Of a stretch of 64,000 nt of DNA, positions 9,163-59,700 are shown piece by piece. Below the pieces are notes generated by a model. The model was not told the DNA's origin. It did not search any database and saw only the letters and a list, made by a program, of their open reading frames with translations. Source of the stretch: Octopus vulgaris (taxonomy: Eukaryota); the NCBI GenBank assembly GCA_951406725.2, contig OX597819.1, positions 126,232,001 through 126,296,000 of the forward strand, read 5' to 3'. Within the stretch, counting starts at the first letter, position 1. The number at the start of each line of letters is the position of its first letter. The position numbers and the translations under genes are program-made.

Positions 9163-9483
9163 ATTGAGTGAGAGAGTAGTGCATGCCATCAAAGTGACAC
9201 TGGGGTAAAATATACGAAGCCCAGTATACCCATCATGACTACCCGTCTGATAAGGGTACGCCAGGCACATGCATCATAACCATGTGTGTGCGACATGGTG
9301 ATCTTATATCAAGATAAACAGCACATGACCTTGCAGGTGGGGCCCAGTTAGAATTTTATTCTGGTCGAGTAACCCATCCTGCTCAAAAGGTGCCTGAATA
9401 AGGGTTGTTAAAGGATGTTGAACGAAACACCTATGTTTCCAGAGGTGAATTATTCAAACCCCAAAGAATCTCTCTCAACACAT
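9163..9483 (-). mobile_element. (TAA)n-associated non-coding retro-element, copy 1
   Basis: Reverse complement of 11885-12207, embedded in (ATT)n. Confidence 0.8.
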
Positions 9484-10444: not shown

Positions 10445-10823
10445 TGGAGGCGCAATGGCCCAGTGGTTAGTGCAGCGGGCTCGCGGTCGGAGGATCGCGG
10501 TTTCGATTCCCAGACCGGGCGTTGTGTGTGTTTATTGAGCGAAAACACCTAAAGCTCCACGAGTCTCCGGCAGGGGGTGGTGGCGACCCCTGTTGTACTC
10601 GTTCGCTCCAACTTTCTCTCACTCCTTCTTCCTGTTTCTTGTCCCCGACTTCCTACGCAACCGCTGAGCCTGGATGCGCATTCATCCATCCGTCGCTGCT
10701 CTCGGTGTCGGGGGTTGACCTGCTTTCTCTTCTGCGGGTCTTACGAATAGCAAAGGACCACGTTTCGGATTTCTCCCACAACTGGGATGAAGACCGCTTC
10801 GCTCAACAAACAAACAAACAAAC
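10445..10823 (+). mobile_element. SINE family C (tRNA-like head), tail type 1
   Basis: Pol III A box (tggcccagtgg) and B box (gtttcgattcc), ends in (AAAC)n. Same tail as 50490-50797. Confidence 0.9.
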
Positions 10824-11662: not shown

Positions 11663-12206
11663 TTATGCCCTGATGCAATACCAGGTAGTGGCTCTCGTGG
11701 TTTCTGACCGTAACTGATTGGAAGTGTTATCATGTACATTGTTTTGTCTTGTTATAAAAGATGGGCTACAGCAAACAGATTTGCTTGTCAGTTGTTTGAT
11801 CTTAACCAGTTGAGCATGTCTCTTAGTGGCTGACGATATGTGTATCTCTGATCACGAGCAGAAGTAGTGGGGGAGCATCATAGCCATGTGTTGAGAGGGA
11901 TTCTTAGAGGTTTGAATAATTCACCTCTGGAAACATGGGTGTTTCGTTCAACATCCTTAAACAATCCTTATTCAGGGACATTTTGAGCAGGATGGGTTAC
12001 TCGACCAGAAGAAAATTCTAACTGGGCTCCCAACTGCAAGGTCATGTGCTGTTTATCTTGATATGAGATCACCATGTCACGCACATATAAGGTTGTGATG
12101 CATGTGCCTGGTGTACCTTTATCAGATGGGTAGTCATGATGGGTATACTGGGCTTCGTATATTTTACCCCAGTGTCACTTTGATGGCATGCACTGCTCTC
12201 TCATTC

Positions 12207-12207
<1 letters not shown>
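11663..12207 (+). mobile_element. (TAA)n-associated non-coding retro-element, longest copy
   Basis: About 545 bp between (AAT)n arrays, ending catgcactgctctctcattc(aat)n. Homologous to 9163, 38579 and 39057. Confidence 0.8.
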
Positions 12208-12260
<53 letters not shown>

Positions 12261-13186: not shown

Positions 13187-13915
13187 AGTTGTGATTAATG
13201 ATTTATGAAATGGTTCTGAGACTTCAAATGCCAAACAAAAAAAGGCCACCCGTGTCCATAATGTTATTGCTAGAGCTTTGGGTCTGGTCGAAGTGAGACA
13301 ATGAGGGAGAAACAACAACTCTACTAGTAAGTAGCCATCAAGATACTTAACTTCAAACCGAAAAACTTGGTTCGATTGCCCTCAACAGTGTGAATTCTAC
13401 TTAAGGCACACGTGAGTCAAGGTGGGGTGAATTAAAATGGGTAACGTCGATTACCTAGACATTAAATAAGCTGGATTTCAGATATTTTCCAAAAACTAAA
13501 TTTCAAGGTCCCATAGCATGCTTGCCATCTTTGCATAACTATTTGCCGAAGCAGAACAACGATATTTTCATTAAATTCTACTATTTAATTATATAGACTC
13601 CGGAATCTGCTCAACGGCAGCATAAACACTAACAGTATTACGAGCAATCAGTAAAGGAAAAAGTCTCCTACCGTTTAAAATATACAAGAATAGGTTTACT
13701 TGAACGAAGTTGGCCCGCGCCTGGAGCTAAGCAACAACATAATATTCATCCGTTGTCGTCGTCGTGGTCATTGTCATCATCATGGTCGTCATCATCATCA
13801 TCATCATCTTATTGATCTATCATTCACTGGCAATATCTTATCTAAATTTATAAATTACAAATTGCAATTGACATGACTAAAGCCTAAAAAAAAAAGAAAA
13901 ATAAAGCATATATCC

Positions 13916-14238
13916 TGTTGTGTCTGGGGAGAGTCATTCTCTTTTTGTGCCTTATTATGTAACACACTCACCGGTAAAATTTCCACTTTTTTCTTATTTT
14001 TATTGTCCTAAAATTTTCGTTGCGTCTTGCAACCTTTTCAATAGTCAAGACTATTGAAAAGGTTGCAACACGCAACGAAAATTTTAGAAAATAAAAATAA
14101 GAAAAAAAGTGGTAATTTTACCGGTGAGTGTGTTACATAATAAGGCACAAAAAGAGAATGACTCTCCCAAGACACAACAGAATATGCTTCAACACACGAA
14201 CTCATATAAAGAATCATGCAAACCAAATCCCAAAACAA
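13916..14238 (+). mobile_element. Fold-back family E element, copy 1 (U3-A8 hammerhead-like motif)
   Basis: About 130-bp inverted arms plus about 60-bp one-sided tail. TSD aaagcat(a/c)tatcc at 13903-13915 and 14239-14251. Confidence 0.9.
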
Positions 14239-14417
14239 AAAGCATCTATCCATTTATATAAATATGTTAATTGTATAAGTGCTTCAATACTTTTCAAAGT
14301 AAATGCTGAGATATTAAAACAGGTATTTATATAAATGATTACCTCCTCCCTCCCTCCCTCCCTCCCTCCCTGCCTGCCTTCCTCCCTCTCTCCCTCTCCT
14401 TCCCTCCCTCCTTCCCC

Positions 14418-19425: not shown

Positions 19426-19800
19426 GATGTACCGGGGTCTTTTCTTTATGAAACTGTATAACACTATTATGAAACTGGGAAAATTCTTTCATCGAAACTG
19501 GAATGTCCCTTTGGCGCTGAAGCAGAAGTAATGTAATGCAGTTTGCATGACAATACACTGTCGTCGTTGAGACTGTCCTCCTATATATCTAGAGGTCTTG
19601 TGTTACTTGCTTCCGCATTTCTGACGATCTAATATCACATTTCCTACACGGCTTATTTTGTGTGTGAGTAGTTACGTTATGTCCATGTTCCTGATCCTCT
19701 CTCCGCCGTTCTGTTTTGCTGTCTTTCTTCAACCCTCTCATCACACACACACATATGTGTTGTTAAAGTATCATGAAAACATAAAACTATTAGTAGCTCT

Positions 19801-20131
19801 ATTGTGTCTGGGGAGAGTCATTTTCTTTTTGTGCCTTATAATGTAACACACTCACCGGTAAAATTTCCATGTTTTTCTTATTTTTATTTTCCTAACATTT
19901 TCTTCGCATCTTGCAACCTTTTCAACCTTTTGAGAGTCAAAACTACTGAAAAGGTTGCAAGATGCAACGAAAATTTTAGGACAATAAAAATAAGAAAACG
20001 TGGAAATTTTACCGGTGAGTGTGTTACATTATAAGGCACAAAAAGAAAATTACTCTCCCCAGACAGAATAGAATATGTTTCAACACACGAACTCATGTAA
20101 AGAATCTTGCAAACCAAATCCCAAAACGAAA
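19801..20131 (+). mobile_element. Fold-back family E element, copy 2
   Basis: Same palindrome plus tail. Perfect 13-bp TSD tattagtagctct at 19788-19800 and 20132-20144. Confidence 0.92.
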
Positions 20132-20216
20132 TATTAGTAGCTCTTTCGGTCATGTATTTAATTGATATTTACCTCTCACTGGATTGAGTACTTTTTAAGT
20201 TGATTCTACCGATATT

Positions 20217-36790: not shown

Positions 36791-37828
36791 GGCCTGCTCG
36801 CTTAGCCAGCAGGGTGGCTTCATTTGAAGGCTAAAACAATGCGAAGCGCATTGTGACCAGCGATGTGTAACAACATCTGATAGCCTGGTCGGTCACGGTG
36901 ATCACGGTGATATATATATATGTATGTATATATATATACACACATACAAAAGGGATGTTTTCAGTAACATAACTTACACATATATACTTCCCTTTCTCTT
37001 TCTCTCTCTCTCTCTCTGTCACACATACATGCACATTTCCTCTCACTTGACTTCTGTTCTCCGTTGCTCATATGTACAACCACACGTACTAACACGCACG
37101 CGCGCACACATAAACACAAGCACTTACGCGGGGTTACGTGTGTGTATGTGCATATACATGTGTGTGTGTGTGTGTATTTGTGCATGGATGCGCGCAGTGT
37201 GCGAAAGCGTATCTGTGAGCAAATGCAAGTGTGTGAAACTACGTTTGTATGTGTGTGTTCTTGCGAAAGTATATTTAATTCTATTCACACTATCACCATT
37301 AAGATTTATCATCCATTTTATAGTAGTATAGTTGAAATATGTTTTTCTCAATAGTAACAGTTGGACTGTAGCGTGATAGTGCTAATAAAATACAACACAC
37401 AAGTATAGTTTAGTTATTGAAGTTACATTTGTATTATCGTTGGGAATGTCACGGTTGAGATATATTTGTGTCAAATTTAAAGTGCAACAGTTGAATGTAG
37501 TTGCACGGTCACAGCTGACGTCTATTTGTGCTTAGTTAACCGTATACAGTCTGTTGTGTCGTAACTTCTAACTATGATTTACAACCTGTTTATAAACAAA
37601 CAATGATAACAAGGAGACGAGAAGCTGTCGTCAGCACTGCTTATTGAATTTTGCTAGATATAACAACCAAATCTACCTGAATTTACATCTCGGTGTCAAA
37701 AAGAGAGAAAAAAATCCCAAATAATATCAAGATGTACTGGATAGAAATCTGAAAAAAATATGCCGATCGGAAAGAGCTCTAATTTATGCATAAGGCCAGA
37801 AGTTACGTGGGTGTGGGGAACCGACGAA

Positions 37829-38237
37829 ACCTATTTCTTTACTACCCACAAGGGGCTAAACACAGAGGGGACAAACAAGGACAGACAGACGGATTAAGTC
37901 GATTAGATCGACCCCAGTGCGTAACTGGTACTTATTTAATCGACCCCGAAAGGATGAAAGGCAAAGTCGACCTCGGCTGAATTTGAACTCAGAATGTAAT
38001 GGCAGACGAAATGCCTATTTCTTTACTACCCACAAGGGGCTACACACAGAGGGAACAAGCAAGGACAGACACACGGATTAAGTCGATTATATCGACCTCA
38101 GGGCGTAACTGGTACTTATTTAATCGACCCCGAAAGAATGAAAGGCAAAGTCGACCTCGGCGGAATTTGAACTCAGAACGTAACGGCAGACGAAATACGG
38201 CTACGCATTTCGCTCCGGCGTGCTAACGATTCTGCCC
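37829..38237 (-). mobile_element. SINE family B tandem dimer
   Basis: Two units joined at gcagacgaaatgcctatttc. Confidence 0.9.
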
Positions 38238-40368: not shown

Positions 40369-41095
40369 GTAGGTTCAGATTTTGGTACAAGGCCCATAAT
40401 TTTAAGGGAGGGACTTCAAACATCATCTGAATTAAGTTAATCTTAGTGTAATACATGCACAAAATCAGGAATTCGGAGTGAAGAAACAGTAAATAATTTG
40501 AACCAATATTTGACCGGTGTACTTTATTCATCGGTCTCAGAAGGATGAAAACAAAGTTGGCTTCAGTGTGATATGAACTTAGAACGTAAATATCCAAAGC
40601 ATATTTCACAAAGAAATGTCTGATGAACTAAAATTGGATTTTAAAAGCGATCTACAATCCATTGCTGTTATAATTGGGTTTAAAAAGATAACTAATATTA
40701 CAACAGTGTCAAAAAAGGAATCATGAGAGCCACGGGCCAATGAGGCAATCTTTGTGCAACCGCTCGATCTGCTAGAAATGACAACTAGTCATTCTCAAAG
40801 TCACATTCCTACTGTCTTTAAATGAGAACGGAAAGGTGTATTAAGCGAAGTTGTGATTATACGAAACGAGAGAGTACGGCCAGATTTGTGTGGCATGTTT
40901 TGCGTTCTCCTTACCTGTACACTCTGACACGCTGCATATCTATTCTTCAGGTGATGTTGGGTCTTCTTTCTCCACTTGTATGTTTACACCACAGTCAATG
41001 ACAACAATACTTCTTTTAGTATTTCTTTAGTGTTTCTGTATGCCAGCGATACTTCTTTCGTGACAAGTAAAGCTAACAATTATTACTTTTGTAGA

Positions 41096-41328
41096 AAGGC
41101 GGTGAGCCGGCAGAAACGTTAGCACGCCGGGCGAAATGCCTAGCGGTATTTCTCCTGCCGTTACGTTCTGAGTTCAAATTCCGCCAAGGTCGACTTTGCT
41201 TTTCATCCTTTCGGGGTCGATAAATTAAGTACCAGTTAATCACTGGGGTCGATGTGATTGACTTAATCCCCTTGTCTGTACTAGTTTGTCCCCTCTGTGT
41301 GTAGCCCCTTGTGGGCAATAAAGAAATA
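41096..41328 (+). mobile_element. SINE family B, full length
   Basis: 18-bp TSD aattattacttttgtaga at 41078-41095 and 41329-41346. Meta-like domain tttcatcctttcggggtcgataaattaagtacc. Confidence 0.93.
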
Positions 41329-42618
41329 AATTATTACTTTTGTAGATCTTTTTTTTCCTTATATTAAAAAGAATTTTCTTTGACAGTTATGCCCCCCACA
41401 CCCCCACCTATTCATATTCACGAGCGGGCCCCGTGATATTCCCCGTTTAATAAATGTTCTTATTTCTATTTTGACGTATATGATGATAGATCTCCGTGAC
41501 ATTGTTTCCTGATGTTAAAGAATCCGATAGTTAAGGCTATTGAGAGAATAACACGAAGTTGTTTCATTACGTAACAGATGTAACTCTCGACATGAATACA
41601 AGCAGATTAATATAACCAACTACAACAAAAAAATCTTTGAATCATAAAACATTACCAACAGAAGCACTGTCAGTAGTTACCTGAAGGTTAACGACATATA
41701 ATACAACAAAACGACATATAAATACAACAAAATATGCTCGTATCCCAACACAAACTACCTGCCACTTATTTTCATCTTCCTTACAGAAGATACAACTCTT
41801 CATTATGCAAATAGAACTAATCGCATCGTACCTAGAGATAGCTCGTAAAGAGTGGATTGTTTAATTATTAGTACTACTACGTTACGGAAAACTGCTTATT
41901 TTGGTACTTTGGATTCGCTTGTGCTTCTTTCCTGGCAATACAATCTATTCATATTTGTTACACCTTCATTTAAACTTCGTAGAATAAAAAAGAAAAGCTC
42001 TATTTTTGCTGCCAAAATATCTTTAAAACTTTTAAAGTGAGAAATGACAAGCCTTGCAACCAACCGAATGTTTTCCTTGAGATATTTTATATGGGAAGCA
42101 GTTGTCCACCGAACGCAATGGAGTTTGGCCAAAGTTAACATGAAGAATGCTTTGAAGCATGACCTATTCTGTTTTAACACATTTTGCTGACACCTGGAAA
42201 CAGTTGGTCATTGACAGGTAATCCAGGAGGGAATATATTGTAGAAGAGTAAACCATGTTGTGTGAGAGGCTATAAGGATGCCAAAACAATTGTCTTTTAC
42301 ACCATAGTAAACGGCGATGAAAAACTTCATGGCAAATACTGATTTCTTGCATCAGCACAAAGCTCCTGTCTTTACAGAAAAATCATATCTTATCTACTTA
42401 ATGCTTTAAAATATGAAGTTACGAATGGTTATTAACAGCTTTGCAAAGCTTCGTAATGCCTTTTATTTGAAATATTAATAATAGCTTTCTTGCGTCACCA
42501 TCATATAAACCTATGCATGTAGATACATTAGCGTTTTGTTTTTATTTAGGAGAAAGGAATATACTAAATATATATAGGTTTAACACGATATCCAGTTTAA
42601 AGCTTACTCTTGAGTAAT

Positions 42619-43025
42619 ACCTATTTCTTTACTACCCACAAGGGGATAAACACAGAGGGAACAAACAAGGGCCCACAAACGGATTAAGTCGATTATATCG
42701 ACCCCAGTGCGTAACTGGTACTTATTTAGTCGACCCCGAAAGGATGAAAGGCAAAGTCGACCTCGGCGGAACTTGAACTCAGAACGTAGCGGCAGACGAA
42801 ATACCTATTTCTTTACTACCCACAAGGGGTTAAACACAGAGGGAACAAACAAGGGCAGACAAACGGATTAAGTCGATTATATCGACCACAGTGCGTAACT
42901 GGTACTTTATTTATCGACCCCGAAAGGATGAAAGGCAAAGTCAACCTCGGCGGAATTTGAACTCATAACGTAACGGCAGACGAAATACGGCTACACATTT
43001 CGCCCGGTGTGCTAACGTTTCTGCC
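42619..43025 (-). mobile_element. SINE family B tandem dimer
   Basis: Two units joined at gcagacgaaatacctatttc. Confidence 0.9.
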
Positions 43026-43361
43026 ATCAGTTATAAAGCATTGCTGTTAAAAATATCTCCCAGCGACTGCTCGTCATCAAAACCATAGGAAATATTAGGA
43101 ATCTTTATTAGCTGCTGCATAACCTCATATCATCATTAATCACCACTCGCCCGAAACATGTGCGAAATAATAAGGACCTACATAAATCCATTGATATCTA
43201 ATTGGGCTTCACGCGATATCTATTGTTAAGCTCAGATCAACCCAGATCCATGGGACCTAAAATCAAAGATAGACCATTCGTGATTATCCTGTCTTTCTAG
43301 AGTAGTGGTTCACAAAGGGTGTACTGCAAGGAGTATCTTGGTGCGTTGCGTATTTAAACTC

Positions 43362-43770: not shown

Positions 43771-43933
43771 TATATATAATTTAAGACTTTGTCACTGCTG
43801 TTATCGTCATCTCAGCTGCATATTGTTCGTCTCCACCCAGGGAAATATCAGTGGAGAGCACGGTCATTGGTTTTCCGGGCCACGACTGATCCGGCATGTT
43901 AACACGTGTTTGTGTGTATATTATGGTATTTCA

Positions 43934-44164
43934 GGCGGTGAGCTGGCAGAAACGTTAGCACGCCGGGCGAAATGCGTAGCCGTATTTCGTCCGTCGTTAC
44001 ATTCTGAGTTCAAATTCCGCCGAGGTCGACTTTGCCTTTCATCCTTTCGGGGTCGATAAATTAAGTACCAGTTACGCACTGGGCTCGATATAATCGACTT
44101 AATCCGTTTGTCTGTTCTTGTTTGTCCCCTATGTGTTTAGCCCCTTGTGGGTAGTAAAGAAATA
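43934..44164 (+). mobile_element. SINE family B, full length
   Basis: TSD ggtatttca(g) at 43925 and 44165. Confidence 0.92.
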
Positions 44165-44349
44165 GGTATTTCAGTGGGCCTTAGAAATGTTTTGTTTTTC
44201 TCATCTCCTCTCCAAGCGTTCAGATTCTTACTAAGTTTAGCCTGCCAGTTGAGAATGGTCTTGGGGCCAAAAGTGAGAGTTAGGTAAAAACCAATGTACC
44301 CGTCCATCCTTAAGGATGTTGCTGCTAGTAACTAAGGTATTATCTCTAA

Positions 44350-45951: not shown

Positions 45952-46674
45952 CTACTACTACTACTAGCTCCTATCCCGTTGTGTTAAGGTGTTTGAAATT
46001 CTGGAAAGCCAAACCAACAAAAATCAATCGTATTTTTTTTGTATTATCAAACATCGATATGAAATCTTTGCTGAGTATAGTTTGTAATTGTATTAAAGTG
46101 TCACATTTTTGTAGCGTCTGTTCAGGGTTACTTTCTAGGAACCATTGATACAAGGTAAGATCCAATTAAGATATCTAGCAACTGATTGGCCTCGTGTTAT
46201 TCTATTTCTCTCCTTATCCTTCCATTTGTATTTTGTTAAGTCCGTCGCAACTGGATATTTTATTAGTCATAATCGCAAGACTTTCATTCAAGATATTTCC
46301 TCGTACTTGTACTTTAGTTGTAATCCTTAGCCATTTCCATATAAATTCGTAATACTAGATGGAAGTTTGTTCCATAATTTGGTTTAAAATAAACTGGAAG
46401 CAACTAATCTCTTTATTGCAAACAACAAGGATACTATTTGTATAGCAGCTTAACAACTATCAAATTGCACCATACCATTACCCAAAAGAAGTAAATATTG
46501 GTCGTCTGCTTTCTTACGTAAAAATACAAGATAATGGCGATTGAGCTGGCCTGTTCTAACCATACAGAACAACAAATAAATAAATATATTTTATTAAAAG
46601 CAATAAGTCGAACAAAATAGGTTTTTTTTCGAAGTCACGGCAGAGGTTAACACATAACAAGGTATATTGCCTTA

Positions 46675-47012
46675 AAGGCGGCGAGCTGGCAGAATCGTTA
46701 GCACGCCGGGCAAAATGCTTAGCGGTATTTCGTCTGCCGTTACGTTCTGAGTTCAAATTCCGCCGAGGTCGACTTTGCCTTTCATCCTTTCGGGGTCGAT
46801 TAAATAAGTACTAGTTTCGCACTGGAGTCGATGTAATCGACTTAATCCGTTTGTCTGTCCTTGTTTGTCCTCTCTGTGTTCAGCCCCTTGTGGGTAGTAA
46901 AGAAATAGATATTTCGCCTGTGGGTAGAAAAGAAATAGGTATTTCGCCTGTCGCCAAGAATTTCGGGCCTTATACCTCTCTGTGTTTAACCCCTTGTGTG
47001 TAGTAAAGAAAT
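46675..47012 (+). mobile_element. SINE family B with reiterated 3' ends
   Basis: 15-bp TSD aggtatattgcctta at 46660-46674 and 47013-47027. The tail ...aaagaaatag occurs three times. Confidence 0.9.
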
Positions 47013-50489: not shown

Positions 50490-50797
50490 CTGTTTGTTTG
50501 TTTGTTAAGCGAAGCAGTCTTCGTCCCCGTTGTGGGAGAAGTCCGAAACGTGGTCCTTTGCTATTCGTAAGACCCGCAGAAGAGAAAGCAGGTCAACCTC
50601 CGACACCGAGAGCATCGACGGATGGATGAATACGCGTCCAGGCTCAGCGGTTGCGTAGGAAGTCAGGGACAAGAAACAGGAAGAAAGAGTGAGAGAAAGT
50701 TGGAGCGAAAGAGTACAACAGGGGTCGCCACCACCCCCTGCTGGAGCCTCGTGGAGCTTTAGGTGTTTTCGCTCAATAAACACACACAACGCCCGGT
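50490..50797 (-). mobile_element. SINE family C, tail type 1, head truncated
   Basis: Reverse complement of 10515-10823. Confidence 0.88.
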
Positions 50798-58819: not shown

Positions 58820-59700
58820 AATAATAATTGCATTGACATGTACATGGGACACAACATCCTTTGCAATGATTTATTTTTCCATGCTACCTTAGTACTTGAG
58901 TGTGTAGTTGAAATTAGCATTGCAGCCAGTCTTTTGTATATGCAACTTTTGTGAGGTCTTCTTTTACATCAAATTACTCAAGACAATTTCGTTTTTGGAT
59001 TTGGTTTGCAAGATTCTTTATATGAGTTCGTGTGTTGAAACATATTCTATTGTGTCTGGGGAGAGTAATTTTCTTTTTGTGCCTTATTATGTAACACACT
59101 CACCGGTAAAATTTCCACTTTTTTCTTATTTTTATTGTCCTAAAATTGTCGTTGCGTCTTGCAACCTTTAGAGTCAAAACTATTGAAAAGGTTGCAAGAC
59201 GCAACGAAAAGTTTAGGGCAATAAAATATGGAAAAAGTGGAAATTTTACCGGTGAGTGTGTTACATAATAAGGCACAAAAAGAAAATGACTCTCCTCAGA
59301 CACAACAAAATACTCAAGACTATGATTTTAAGGATGGTCGTGACTTGGCGATTCATTGAGTGACCGGTGTCTCTAGGCCATTCTGAATGTCTTGTCTTGT
59401 CGTAGCAGCCTTATGTAGCATTAAAGTTCTAATATCGACCAGTGTTTTTGAGATCTAATGAAGACAGCTTCCTCATGGCTCCTCTGTTGACGAAAACTTT
59501 CCACAAGTCTATCTAACATCGCGCACCCTACTGTCATAGATAAGGAATGACGGAATGGCACATTAGATCTAGCACGTTTGAAGGAAAAAACGAACAAAAC
59601 AAAAAACAAAGTAAGAAGGTTGGTCGCAACATTTTGAAAAACAGAAAAAGTAAGGTGGAGCATCATTGAGCAGAGGTCTATTCGATAAGGTCAGATCAAG
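58820..59700 (+). repeat. Diverged direct repeat, copy 1 (paralogue of 61428-62231)
   Basis: Colinear similarity, e.g. gctaccttagtacttg, ttttaaggatggtc, ttttgagatctaatga. Confidence 0.85.
58985..59310 (-). mobile_element. Fold-back family E element, copy 3
   Basis: Tail on the left. TSD tactcaagac at 58975-58984 and 59311-59320. Confidence 0.9.

What the first reader, a model, noticed from the sequence alone, without database searches (positions are those of the whole stretch)
13903..14251. Family E: fixed-architecture hairpin element with U3-A8 hammerhead core and TSDs
Three copies (13916, 19801, 58985) have about 130-bp arms, a 60-bp tail, nearly the same boundaries and 10-13 bp TSDs, but variable hairpin centres. 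Just past the centre the arm reads cta-UUGAAAA-g-gttgc(g/a)...(c/t)gcaac-GAAA-auuu-uag. U3-A8 is the known compensatory swap of the C3-G8 core pair. Variable TSD length and asymmetry argue for retrotransposition rather than a MITE. The variable centres suggest the hairpin forms anew at each insertion (inference).
Basis: partly seen in the sequence, partly recalled or inferred. Interest (0 to 1): 0.75.

Follow-up and report, generated by a model that had tools for sequence, protein, structure and literature searches.

The report
Head-to-head Penelope retrotransposon ends, octopus
This hairpin is not a separate element but two short pieces of the end repeat of a common Penelope-type jumping gene lying head to head, and the fixed start and stop points of its many copies suggest that both cut DNA strands are likely copied onto at once from two start sites near the front of the element's RNA.

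Summary
The three copies are real, but "family E" is not a fixed-architecture element. It is the 5'-truncated, head-to-head inverted insertion form of an autonomous Penelope-like element (PLE) with RT, a CX4CxxC linker and GIY-YIG; the host is likely an octopus. The "tail" is codons 8-28 of the PLE ORF. The U3-A8 motif fits the published minimal PLE hammerhead and co-varies with a C3-G8 motif in a sister family, but is intact only in window copy 1, and genome-wide counts show no pile-up of ends at its cut site. TSDs are 6-16 nt (42 of 54). Arm lengths vary almost independently. Two extras: 18 of 19 two-armed insertions carry exactly one tail, and about half of the arms that reach position -200 stop at that single base (1722 to 879). 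Both fit twin priming from two internal RT start sites with run-off at the RNA 5' end (inferred). The scan found this kind of element before on other DNA of this genome.

The parts
13905..13914 (+). copy 1, left target-site duplication (AGCATATATC; up to 13 nt with microhomology)
13915..14046 (-). copy 1, inverted tail-less pLTR arm; starts at the tail boundary; carries an intact minimal hammerhead on the minus strand (14044-14008)
14040..14055 (.). copy 1, head-to-head junction at the element's own short palindrome AGTC-AA-GACT (element positions -198 to -189)
14043..14180 (+). copy 1, direct pLTR arm (5' UTR of the PLE and codons 1-7; ATG at 14158)
14051..14087 (+). minimal type I hammerhead: helix I CUA/UAG, core UUGAAAA (U3-A8), extra G, 5-bp helix II, GAAA, palindromic A-AU-U, U17; predicted cut after 14084
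   Evidence: features as in PMC4209133; cleavage untested
14181..14240 (+). copy 1, 60-bp tail = codons 8-28 of the PLE ORF
14241..14250 (+). copy 1, right target-site duplication (AGCATCTATC)
19799..20131 (+). copy 2; direct arm starts exactly at -200 (AGAGTC, 19933); 7-nt filler at the junction; core reads CUGAAAA; TSD TATTAGTAGCT at 19788-19798 and 20132-20142
58987..59308 (-). copy 3; tail 58987-59046; tail arm ends at -183, tail-less arm (59170-59308) ends exactly at -200; TSD about 14 nt at 58973-58986 and 59309-59322

Best explanation
These hairpins are dead, 5'-truncated insertions of an autonomous Neptune/Nematis-type Penelope-like retrotransposon, each made of two pieces of the element's end repeat lying head to head, likely written by the element's own enzyme priming on both cut DNA strands at once. 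Shown: the sequence is the pLTR end plus the first 28 codons of an RT/GIY-YIG ORF; one arm ends after codon 28, the other after codon 7; TSDs flank the pair; 5' ends pile up at one base (-200). Inferred: GIY-YIG makes a staggered cut about 12 nt wide; one nicked strand primes reverse transcription at the tail end, the other 60 nt upstream; when priming happens at the 5'-proximal copy of these sites in the tandem transcript, the cDNAs run off the RNA 5' end at -200 (a likely transcription start), giving about 200- and 140-nt 'strong-stop-like' products; the two cDNA ends are joined by microhomology, often at the AGTC-AA-GACT palindrome. The hammerhead is the usual PLE passenger and would be uncut in most templates that were copied.
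For: Identity: L031 holds inverted pLTR + RT/GIY-YIG remnants + pLTR ending in this sequence (Pfam GIY-YIG above cut-off, E 1.7e-6); 17 of 25 ORF-bearing loci have it downstream of the ORF; L214, L215, L218 read on from the tail into the ORF. Two start sites: 119 of 129 tail-anchored arms end at -1 to -7, and 83 of 94 inverted arms start at -53 to -69; in an arm-anchored sample 18 of 19 classifiable pairs have exactly one tail (P 4e-5 against free choice), and single arms are 8 tail-plus and 9 tail-less; either arm can be the ORF-linked one. This matches the two in vitro RT start sites flanking the tail and the cutting and extension of both strands in Poseidon_Ac (PMC11167929). Not simple fold-back: the tail-less arm reaches more than 10 nt further 5' in 38 of 83 pairs, the tail arm in 18, and 27 are within 10 nt. 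Run-off: 41 of 64 arms still at risk end at -200 to -196; genome-wide 1939, 1722, 879 exact matches as the pattern is extended to -199, -200, -201 against 2-4% loss per base elsewhere; clean stops straight into flank in single-arm copies L143, L178, L064. The young sister family shows the same layout and its own pile-up at -283 to -273.
Against: No RNA evidence: no run on record as RNA, no raw reads, so -200 as a transcription start is inferred only; no TATA box at -30 was seen, and an RT pause just 5' of the hammerhead would look alike in this family. The two arms disagree at lineage-diagnostic sites in 46 of 411 comparisons (11%), more than decay alone would give (about 2-4%) though far below unrelated arms (about 34%), so a minority of pairs may come from two RNAs or two different pLTR copies. 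Arm lengths are weakly correlated (rho 0.29). Deletions at palindrome centres after insertion could create some of the asymmetry. The sister pile-up rests on 70 loci and is spread over 10 nt. 4 of 94 pairs have the tail, or part of it, on both arms.
Confidence: 0.65

Rival explanations
1. Same PLE identity, but the inverted arm arises by self-priming (fold-back) on an antisense template or on the first cDNA, the tail being left by endonuclease resolution, as proposed by Arkhipova and colleagues; asymmetry comes from later deletion at the hairpin centre.
For: Palindromic head-to-head junctions in all three window copies and L202; 27 of 83 pairs have arms ending within 10 nt of each other; arms mostly share lineage variants (186 of 229 against 52% between insertions); the model is in print (PMC3846280 passages; PMC8557442 passages).
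Against: Either arm can be the longer (38 against 18); one arm often stops exactly at -200 while its partner stops at -99, -143 or -151; single arms stop at -200 with no hairpin; the 97-100% identical sister copies are already asymmetric.
Confidence: 0.22
2. The short copies come from a separate non-autonomous RNA of about 200 nt or more that starts at -200 (a PLE-derived SINE or retrozyme-like master) and is moved in trans.
For: Very sharp stop at -200; short copies far outnumber ORF-bearing ones; non-autonomous pLTR derivatives are known (bioRxiv 10.64898/2026.07.22.740005, abstract).
Against: About half of the arms that reach -200 continue into the PLE 3' UTR (879 of 1722) and ends form a continuum up to the ORF; no tandem monomer arrays of the unit were seen in the loci examined; no private SINE head.
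Confidence: 0.1
3. A foldback DNA transposon or MITE with long terminal inverted repeats.
For: Long inverted arms and TSDs.
Against: TSDs of 6-16 nt, a tail on one side only, continuity with an RT/GIY-YIG ORF, variable junctions.
Confidence: 0.01

Closest known systems
Inverted 5'-truncated pLTR insertions with optional tail of EN+ Penelope-like elements (Adineta Pen2a, PMC3846280; general scheme, PMC8557442 Fig. 2 legend; D. virilis Penelope, PMC2377424)
   Same: Head-to-head inverted pLTR, tail on one end only, tail overlapping the first ORF codons, short TSDs, palindromic junctions, AT-rich/(TA)n targets.
   Different: Tail is 60 nt here against 30-40 nt; most copies hold no ORF at all; a single-base 5' stop point and a counted one-tail rule were not found in the passages read.
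Minimal hammerheads of metazoan PLEs, U3-A8 variant of Schistosoma Cercyon elements (PMC4209133)
   Same: U3-A8 core, extra nucleotide between 9 and 10.1, G10.1-C11.1, palindromic 15.2-16.2, no helix III, location in the pLTR.
   Different: Helix II 5 bp and helix I only 3 bp (4-5 and 7-8 bp in Schistosoma), U at the cleavage position; activity untested.
Poseidon_Ac of the green anole (PMC11167929)
   Same: Two internal RT start sites bounding the tail inside the ORF 5' end, both strands cut and extended, hammerhead cleavage not needed.
   Different: Different clade (no Cys linker in Penelope/Poseidon); ATG lies about 75 nt downstream of the hammerhead here; that paper's text as read does not explain inverted pairs.
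L1 twin priming and retroviral minus-strand strong-stop DNA (recalled, not looked up)
   Same: Both nicked strands prime; short cDNA runs off the RNA 5' end.
   Different: L1 twin priming inverts without duplicating; here both arms copy the same stretch.

Membership tests
EN+ Penelope-like element | Single ORF with RT followed by GIY-YIG endonuclease | tested here: met
   L031 remnants, Pfam PF01541 above cut-off; sister family has an intact 1309-aa ORF with DKSG, YVDD, YVGET. Pfam gave no RT family hit and no hit on the sister ORF, so RT rests on motifs and the UniRef name.
EN+ Penelope-like element | pLTR formed by partial tandem; direct or inverted | tested here: met
   L031, L214, L215, L218 and sister L202-L210
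EN+ Penelope-like element | Optional tail at one end, overlapping the ORF start | tested here: met
EN+ Penelope-like element | Short variable TSDs, AT-rich targets | tested here: met
   42 of 54 non-microsatellite pairs, 6-16 nt, median 12; control 69 of 2862; 17 of 71 in microsatellites
Neptune/Nematis clades | CX2-5CxxC linker between RT and EN | tested here: met
   CTNDNCMVC in P0001, CTDNYCTVC in the sister; definition from PMC8557442
Neptune/Nematis clades | RT phylogeny placing it in one of the two clades | not tested
   no named reference PLE proteins were in hand
Minimal PLE hammerhead | Core boxes with C3-G8 or U3-A8, extra nt before G10.1-C11.1, palindromic 15.2-16.2 | tested here: met
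   majority sequence of over 100 arms; sister family at the same place reads CCA CUGAUGC G GUCACA-GGAG-UGUGAC GAAA GAAC UU UGG, with compensatory changes in helix I, helix II and pair 3-8, but C at position 9
Minimal PLE hammerhead | Self-cleavage (dimer or protein-assisted) | not testable with these tools
   indirect test negative: no excess of 5' ends at the cut site; hammerhead is not the minimum-energy fold; Rfam no hit
MITE / foldback DNA transposon | Symmetric TIRs at both ends and constant TSD | tested here: not met
Non-LTR retrozyme | Non-coding tandem monomers with canonical hammerhead | tested here: not met
   continuous with a coding PLE; no monomer arrays in the loci examined

The most novel reading that the evidence does not exclude
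The short PLE hairpins are paired 'strong-stop' cDNAs: one RNP cuts both strands, primes once at each of the two tail-bounding start sites on the uncut RNA, both cDNAs run off at the transcription start, and their ends join at a built-in palindrome. The genome then records the element's transcription start to the base and explains the long-unexplained inverted pLTR plus one-sided tail of PLEs without self-priming or ribozyme cleavage.
Probability: 0.45. Interest if true: 0.6.

Novelty: new member of a known kind. Interest (0 to 1): 0.3.

Why it matters
As an element it is ordinary. Its value is as a large natural data set on an open question, how PLEs make inverted pLTRs and one-sided tails: the one-tail rule and the single-base stop give sharp, cheap predictions (a transcript 5' end at -200, two-strand products from two start sites), and a young sister family with intact ORFs in the same genome offers material for an in vitro test in a clade other than Poseidon.

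Tried and rejected
Hammerhead cleavage as the source of 5' ends: a weak excess in the sample (19 against 9.7 expected at -159 to -151) came from an indel variant and ambiguous junctions; genome-wide counts 2692, 2591, 2530, 2451 show the smallest loss at the predicted cut. Flip-flop inversion of a fixed hairpin centre (suggested by copies 2 and 3): rejected, junctions vary freely. Gene conversion as the cause of arm likeness: not supported, CpG decay is unshared. Cap-derived G before -200: 5 of 17 ends, not convincing. Rfam: no hit. RNA runs: no RNA holder listed (the query was the sister element); contigs of four other-organism runs hold the element, many ending at the -200 motif, but cannot show RNA ends. 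Lunse et al. 2017 (PMC5785218) was not held. Searches for a printed strong-stop or twin-priming model found none; one search found no octopus Neptune description. Dropped rows: the 30 loci and 10 further places (chosen by arm length) and three duplicates of L144 were left out of the counts.

Full report
Observation. The three copies lie at 13915-14240 (+), 19799-20131 (+) and 58987-59308 (-) and are 88-91% alike. Each is a long hairpin with a 60-bp one-sided tail and a TSD of 10, 11 and about 14 nt. A minimal-hammerhead descriptor matches only copy 1, on both arms, with 0 hits in 20 shuffles. Copies 2 and 3 have damaged or missing cores. The claimed stem II covariation is CpG decay. Rfam gives nothing.

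What it is. The window comes from a 2.8-Gb genome; a protein of the sister family is 98% identical to an Octopus vulgaris protein. An exact 24-mer of the tail occurs 3713 times, control 0. Longer copies run upstream into a shared 3' UTR and then an ORF. L031 holds TSD-like (TA)n, an inverted pLTR, RT and GIY-YIG remnants and a pLTR ending in exactly this sequence. Of 25 ORF-bearing loci, 17 have the element downstream of the ORF. In L214, L215 and L218 the tail runs on into the ORF, and window 14158-14241 translates to MTLPRHNRICFNTRTHIKNHANQIPKQK, 67% identical to the N-terminus of the sister's intact ORF. The CX4CxxC linker points to the Neptune/Nematis type (PMC8557442 passages); no tree was built. 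So 'family E' is the pLTR end plus the first 28 codons of a PLE. Head-to-head inverted pLTRs with a one-sided tail that overlaps the ORF start and short TSDs are described (PMC3846280 passages; PMC8557442; PMC2377424 passages; PMC8969392 passages).

Architecture across copies. Coordinates count back from the tail end. I used 129 tail-anchored copies (40, 87 position-ordered after dropping three duplicates, two window copies). 94 have an inverted arm; 83 of these start at -53 to -69, the tail boundary, 4 include tail sequence and 7 are eroded. TSDs were found in 42 of 54 pairs outside microsatellites, 6-16 nt, median 12, against 69 of 2862 mismatched controls. The arms end almost independently: the tail-less arm reaches further in 38 of 83, the tail arm in 18, 27 are within 10 nt (rho 0.29). 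In 40 loci anchored on the arm and not on the tail, 19 pairs could be classed: 18 have exactly one tail, 1 has none (614-bp gap), none has two; single arms were 8 tail-plus and 9 tail-less. In ORF-bearing copies either arm may be the tailed one.

The stop at -200. 41 of 64 arms still at risk end at -200 to -196, 17 exactly at -200, 1 at -201 to -205. Genome-wide, extending an exact pattern to -199, -200 and -201 gives 1939, 1722 and 879 matches, while the loss per base around -156 is 2-4%. Position -201 is C in 24 of 27 arms that continue, so this is truncation, not polymorphism. The C|A step fits a pyrimidine-purine initiator (recalled). The sister family has 11 ends at -283 to -273 among 70 loci, 55-60 nt upstream of its hammerhead, which argues for an RNA 5' end over a pause at the ribozyme, though the sample is small. 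D. virilis Penelope is known to start transcription inside the upstream pLTR (PMC2377424).

The hammerhead. The majority motif is CUA UUGAAAA G GUUGC-AAGAC-GCAAC GAAA AU UU UAG. It has each feature listed for minimal PLE hammerheads, and U3-A8 was reported in Schistosoma PLEs (PMC4209133, parts 1-2 of 4 read; supplements not seen and may list mollusc motifs). The sister family has, at the same place, a C3-G8 motif with compensatory changes in helices I and II, good evidence that the fold is selected in active lineages. Among dead copies it decays like its flanks (core 95%; 18 of 86 arms fit a strict descriptor). There is no excess of ends at the predicted cut, in line with the finding that uncut RNA is the main substrate in Poseidon_Ac (PMC11167929, parts 1-2 of 4 read; supplements not seen).

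Mechanism. Poseidon_Ac protein cuts and extends both target strands and starts RT at two internal sites that bound the tail (PMC11167929). Applied here (inference): a staggered cut gives the TSD; one strand primes at the tail end and the other at the tail boundary; because the sites lie inside the ORF start, they also occur about 200 and 140 nt from the RNA 5' end, so priming there gives short cDNAs that run off at -200 or stop earlier; the two ends join by microhomology or short filler, often at the AGTC-AA-GACT palindrome, as in copy 1. Arms share lineage variants in 186 of 229 comparisons against 52% between insertions, and CpG decay is not shared, so they were alike from birth; 46 of 411 discordant diagnostic sites suggest that a minority used different templates. 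The printed alternative, self-priming on an antisense template with endonuclease resolution of the tail, does not easily give longer arms on either side or single arms that stop at -200, but later deletions in hairpins cannot be excluded.

Novelty. The element type, the hairpin-plus-tail layout and the U3-A8 hammerhead are known. Earlier notes of this scan on other DNA of this genome reached the same identity, and some proposed two-strand priming for retrozymes (unchecked AI notes, seen after my own reading was formed). I found no printed statement of the one-tail count or the single-base run-off in searches, but Arkhipova 2006 and Lunse 2017 could not be read. Verdict: new member of a known kind, interest 0.3; the strong-stop twin-priming reading has probability about 0.45 and would merit 0.6.

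Noticed in passing
L202-L210, L107-L111, L222-L291 (e.g. G000:C17:6329500-6337500): A young sister PLE family (61% protein identity over the RT/EN part, copies 97-100% alike, many intact 1309-aa ORFs with an Asn-rich insert; 2458 exact tail matches). It targets (TA)n almost only, and its hammerhead has C at position 9.
   Followed up: partly
window 13915, 19799, 58987: All three window copies carry a rare sub-lineage variant (TAGGAC, 4 of 87 in the position-ordered sample); copies 2 and 3 share three more rare variants. Three exact-tail copies in 64 kb against 0.085 expected. Suggests local clustering of one sub-lineage. In this variant helix I could extend (GUC/GAC across a 4-nt bulge).
   Followed up: partly
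sister pLTR, -283 to -273 from its 3' end: The sister's 5'-end pile-up lies right before CAAAATGGC, which resembles a YY1 site (recalled consensus), as at the L1 start.
   Followed up: no
L007, L046: Junction pieces amplified into tandem arrays (55-nt and 36-nt units) inside the hairpin centre.
   Followed up: no
L144, L145, L149, L150 (G000:C1:21.1-22.3 Mb): One insertion present four times, a segmental or tandem duplication.
   Followed up: no
window 37823-38236, 41095-41338, 42616-43026, 43933-44172, 46674-46920; 9163-9482 with 11887-12209; 10514-10803 with 50508-50797: Other dispersed repeat families in the window, one with a unit of about 185 nt in partial tandems.
   Followed up: no
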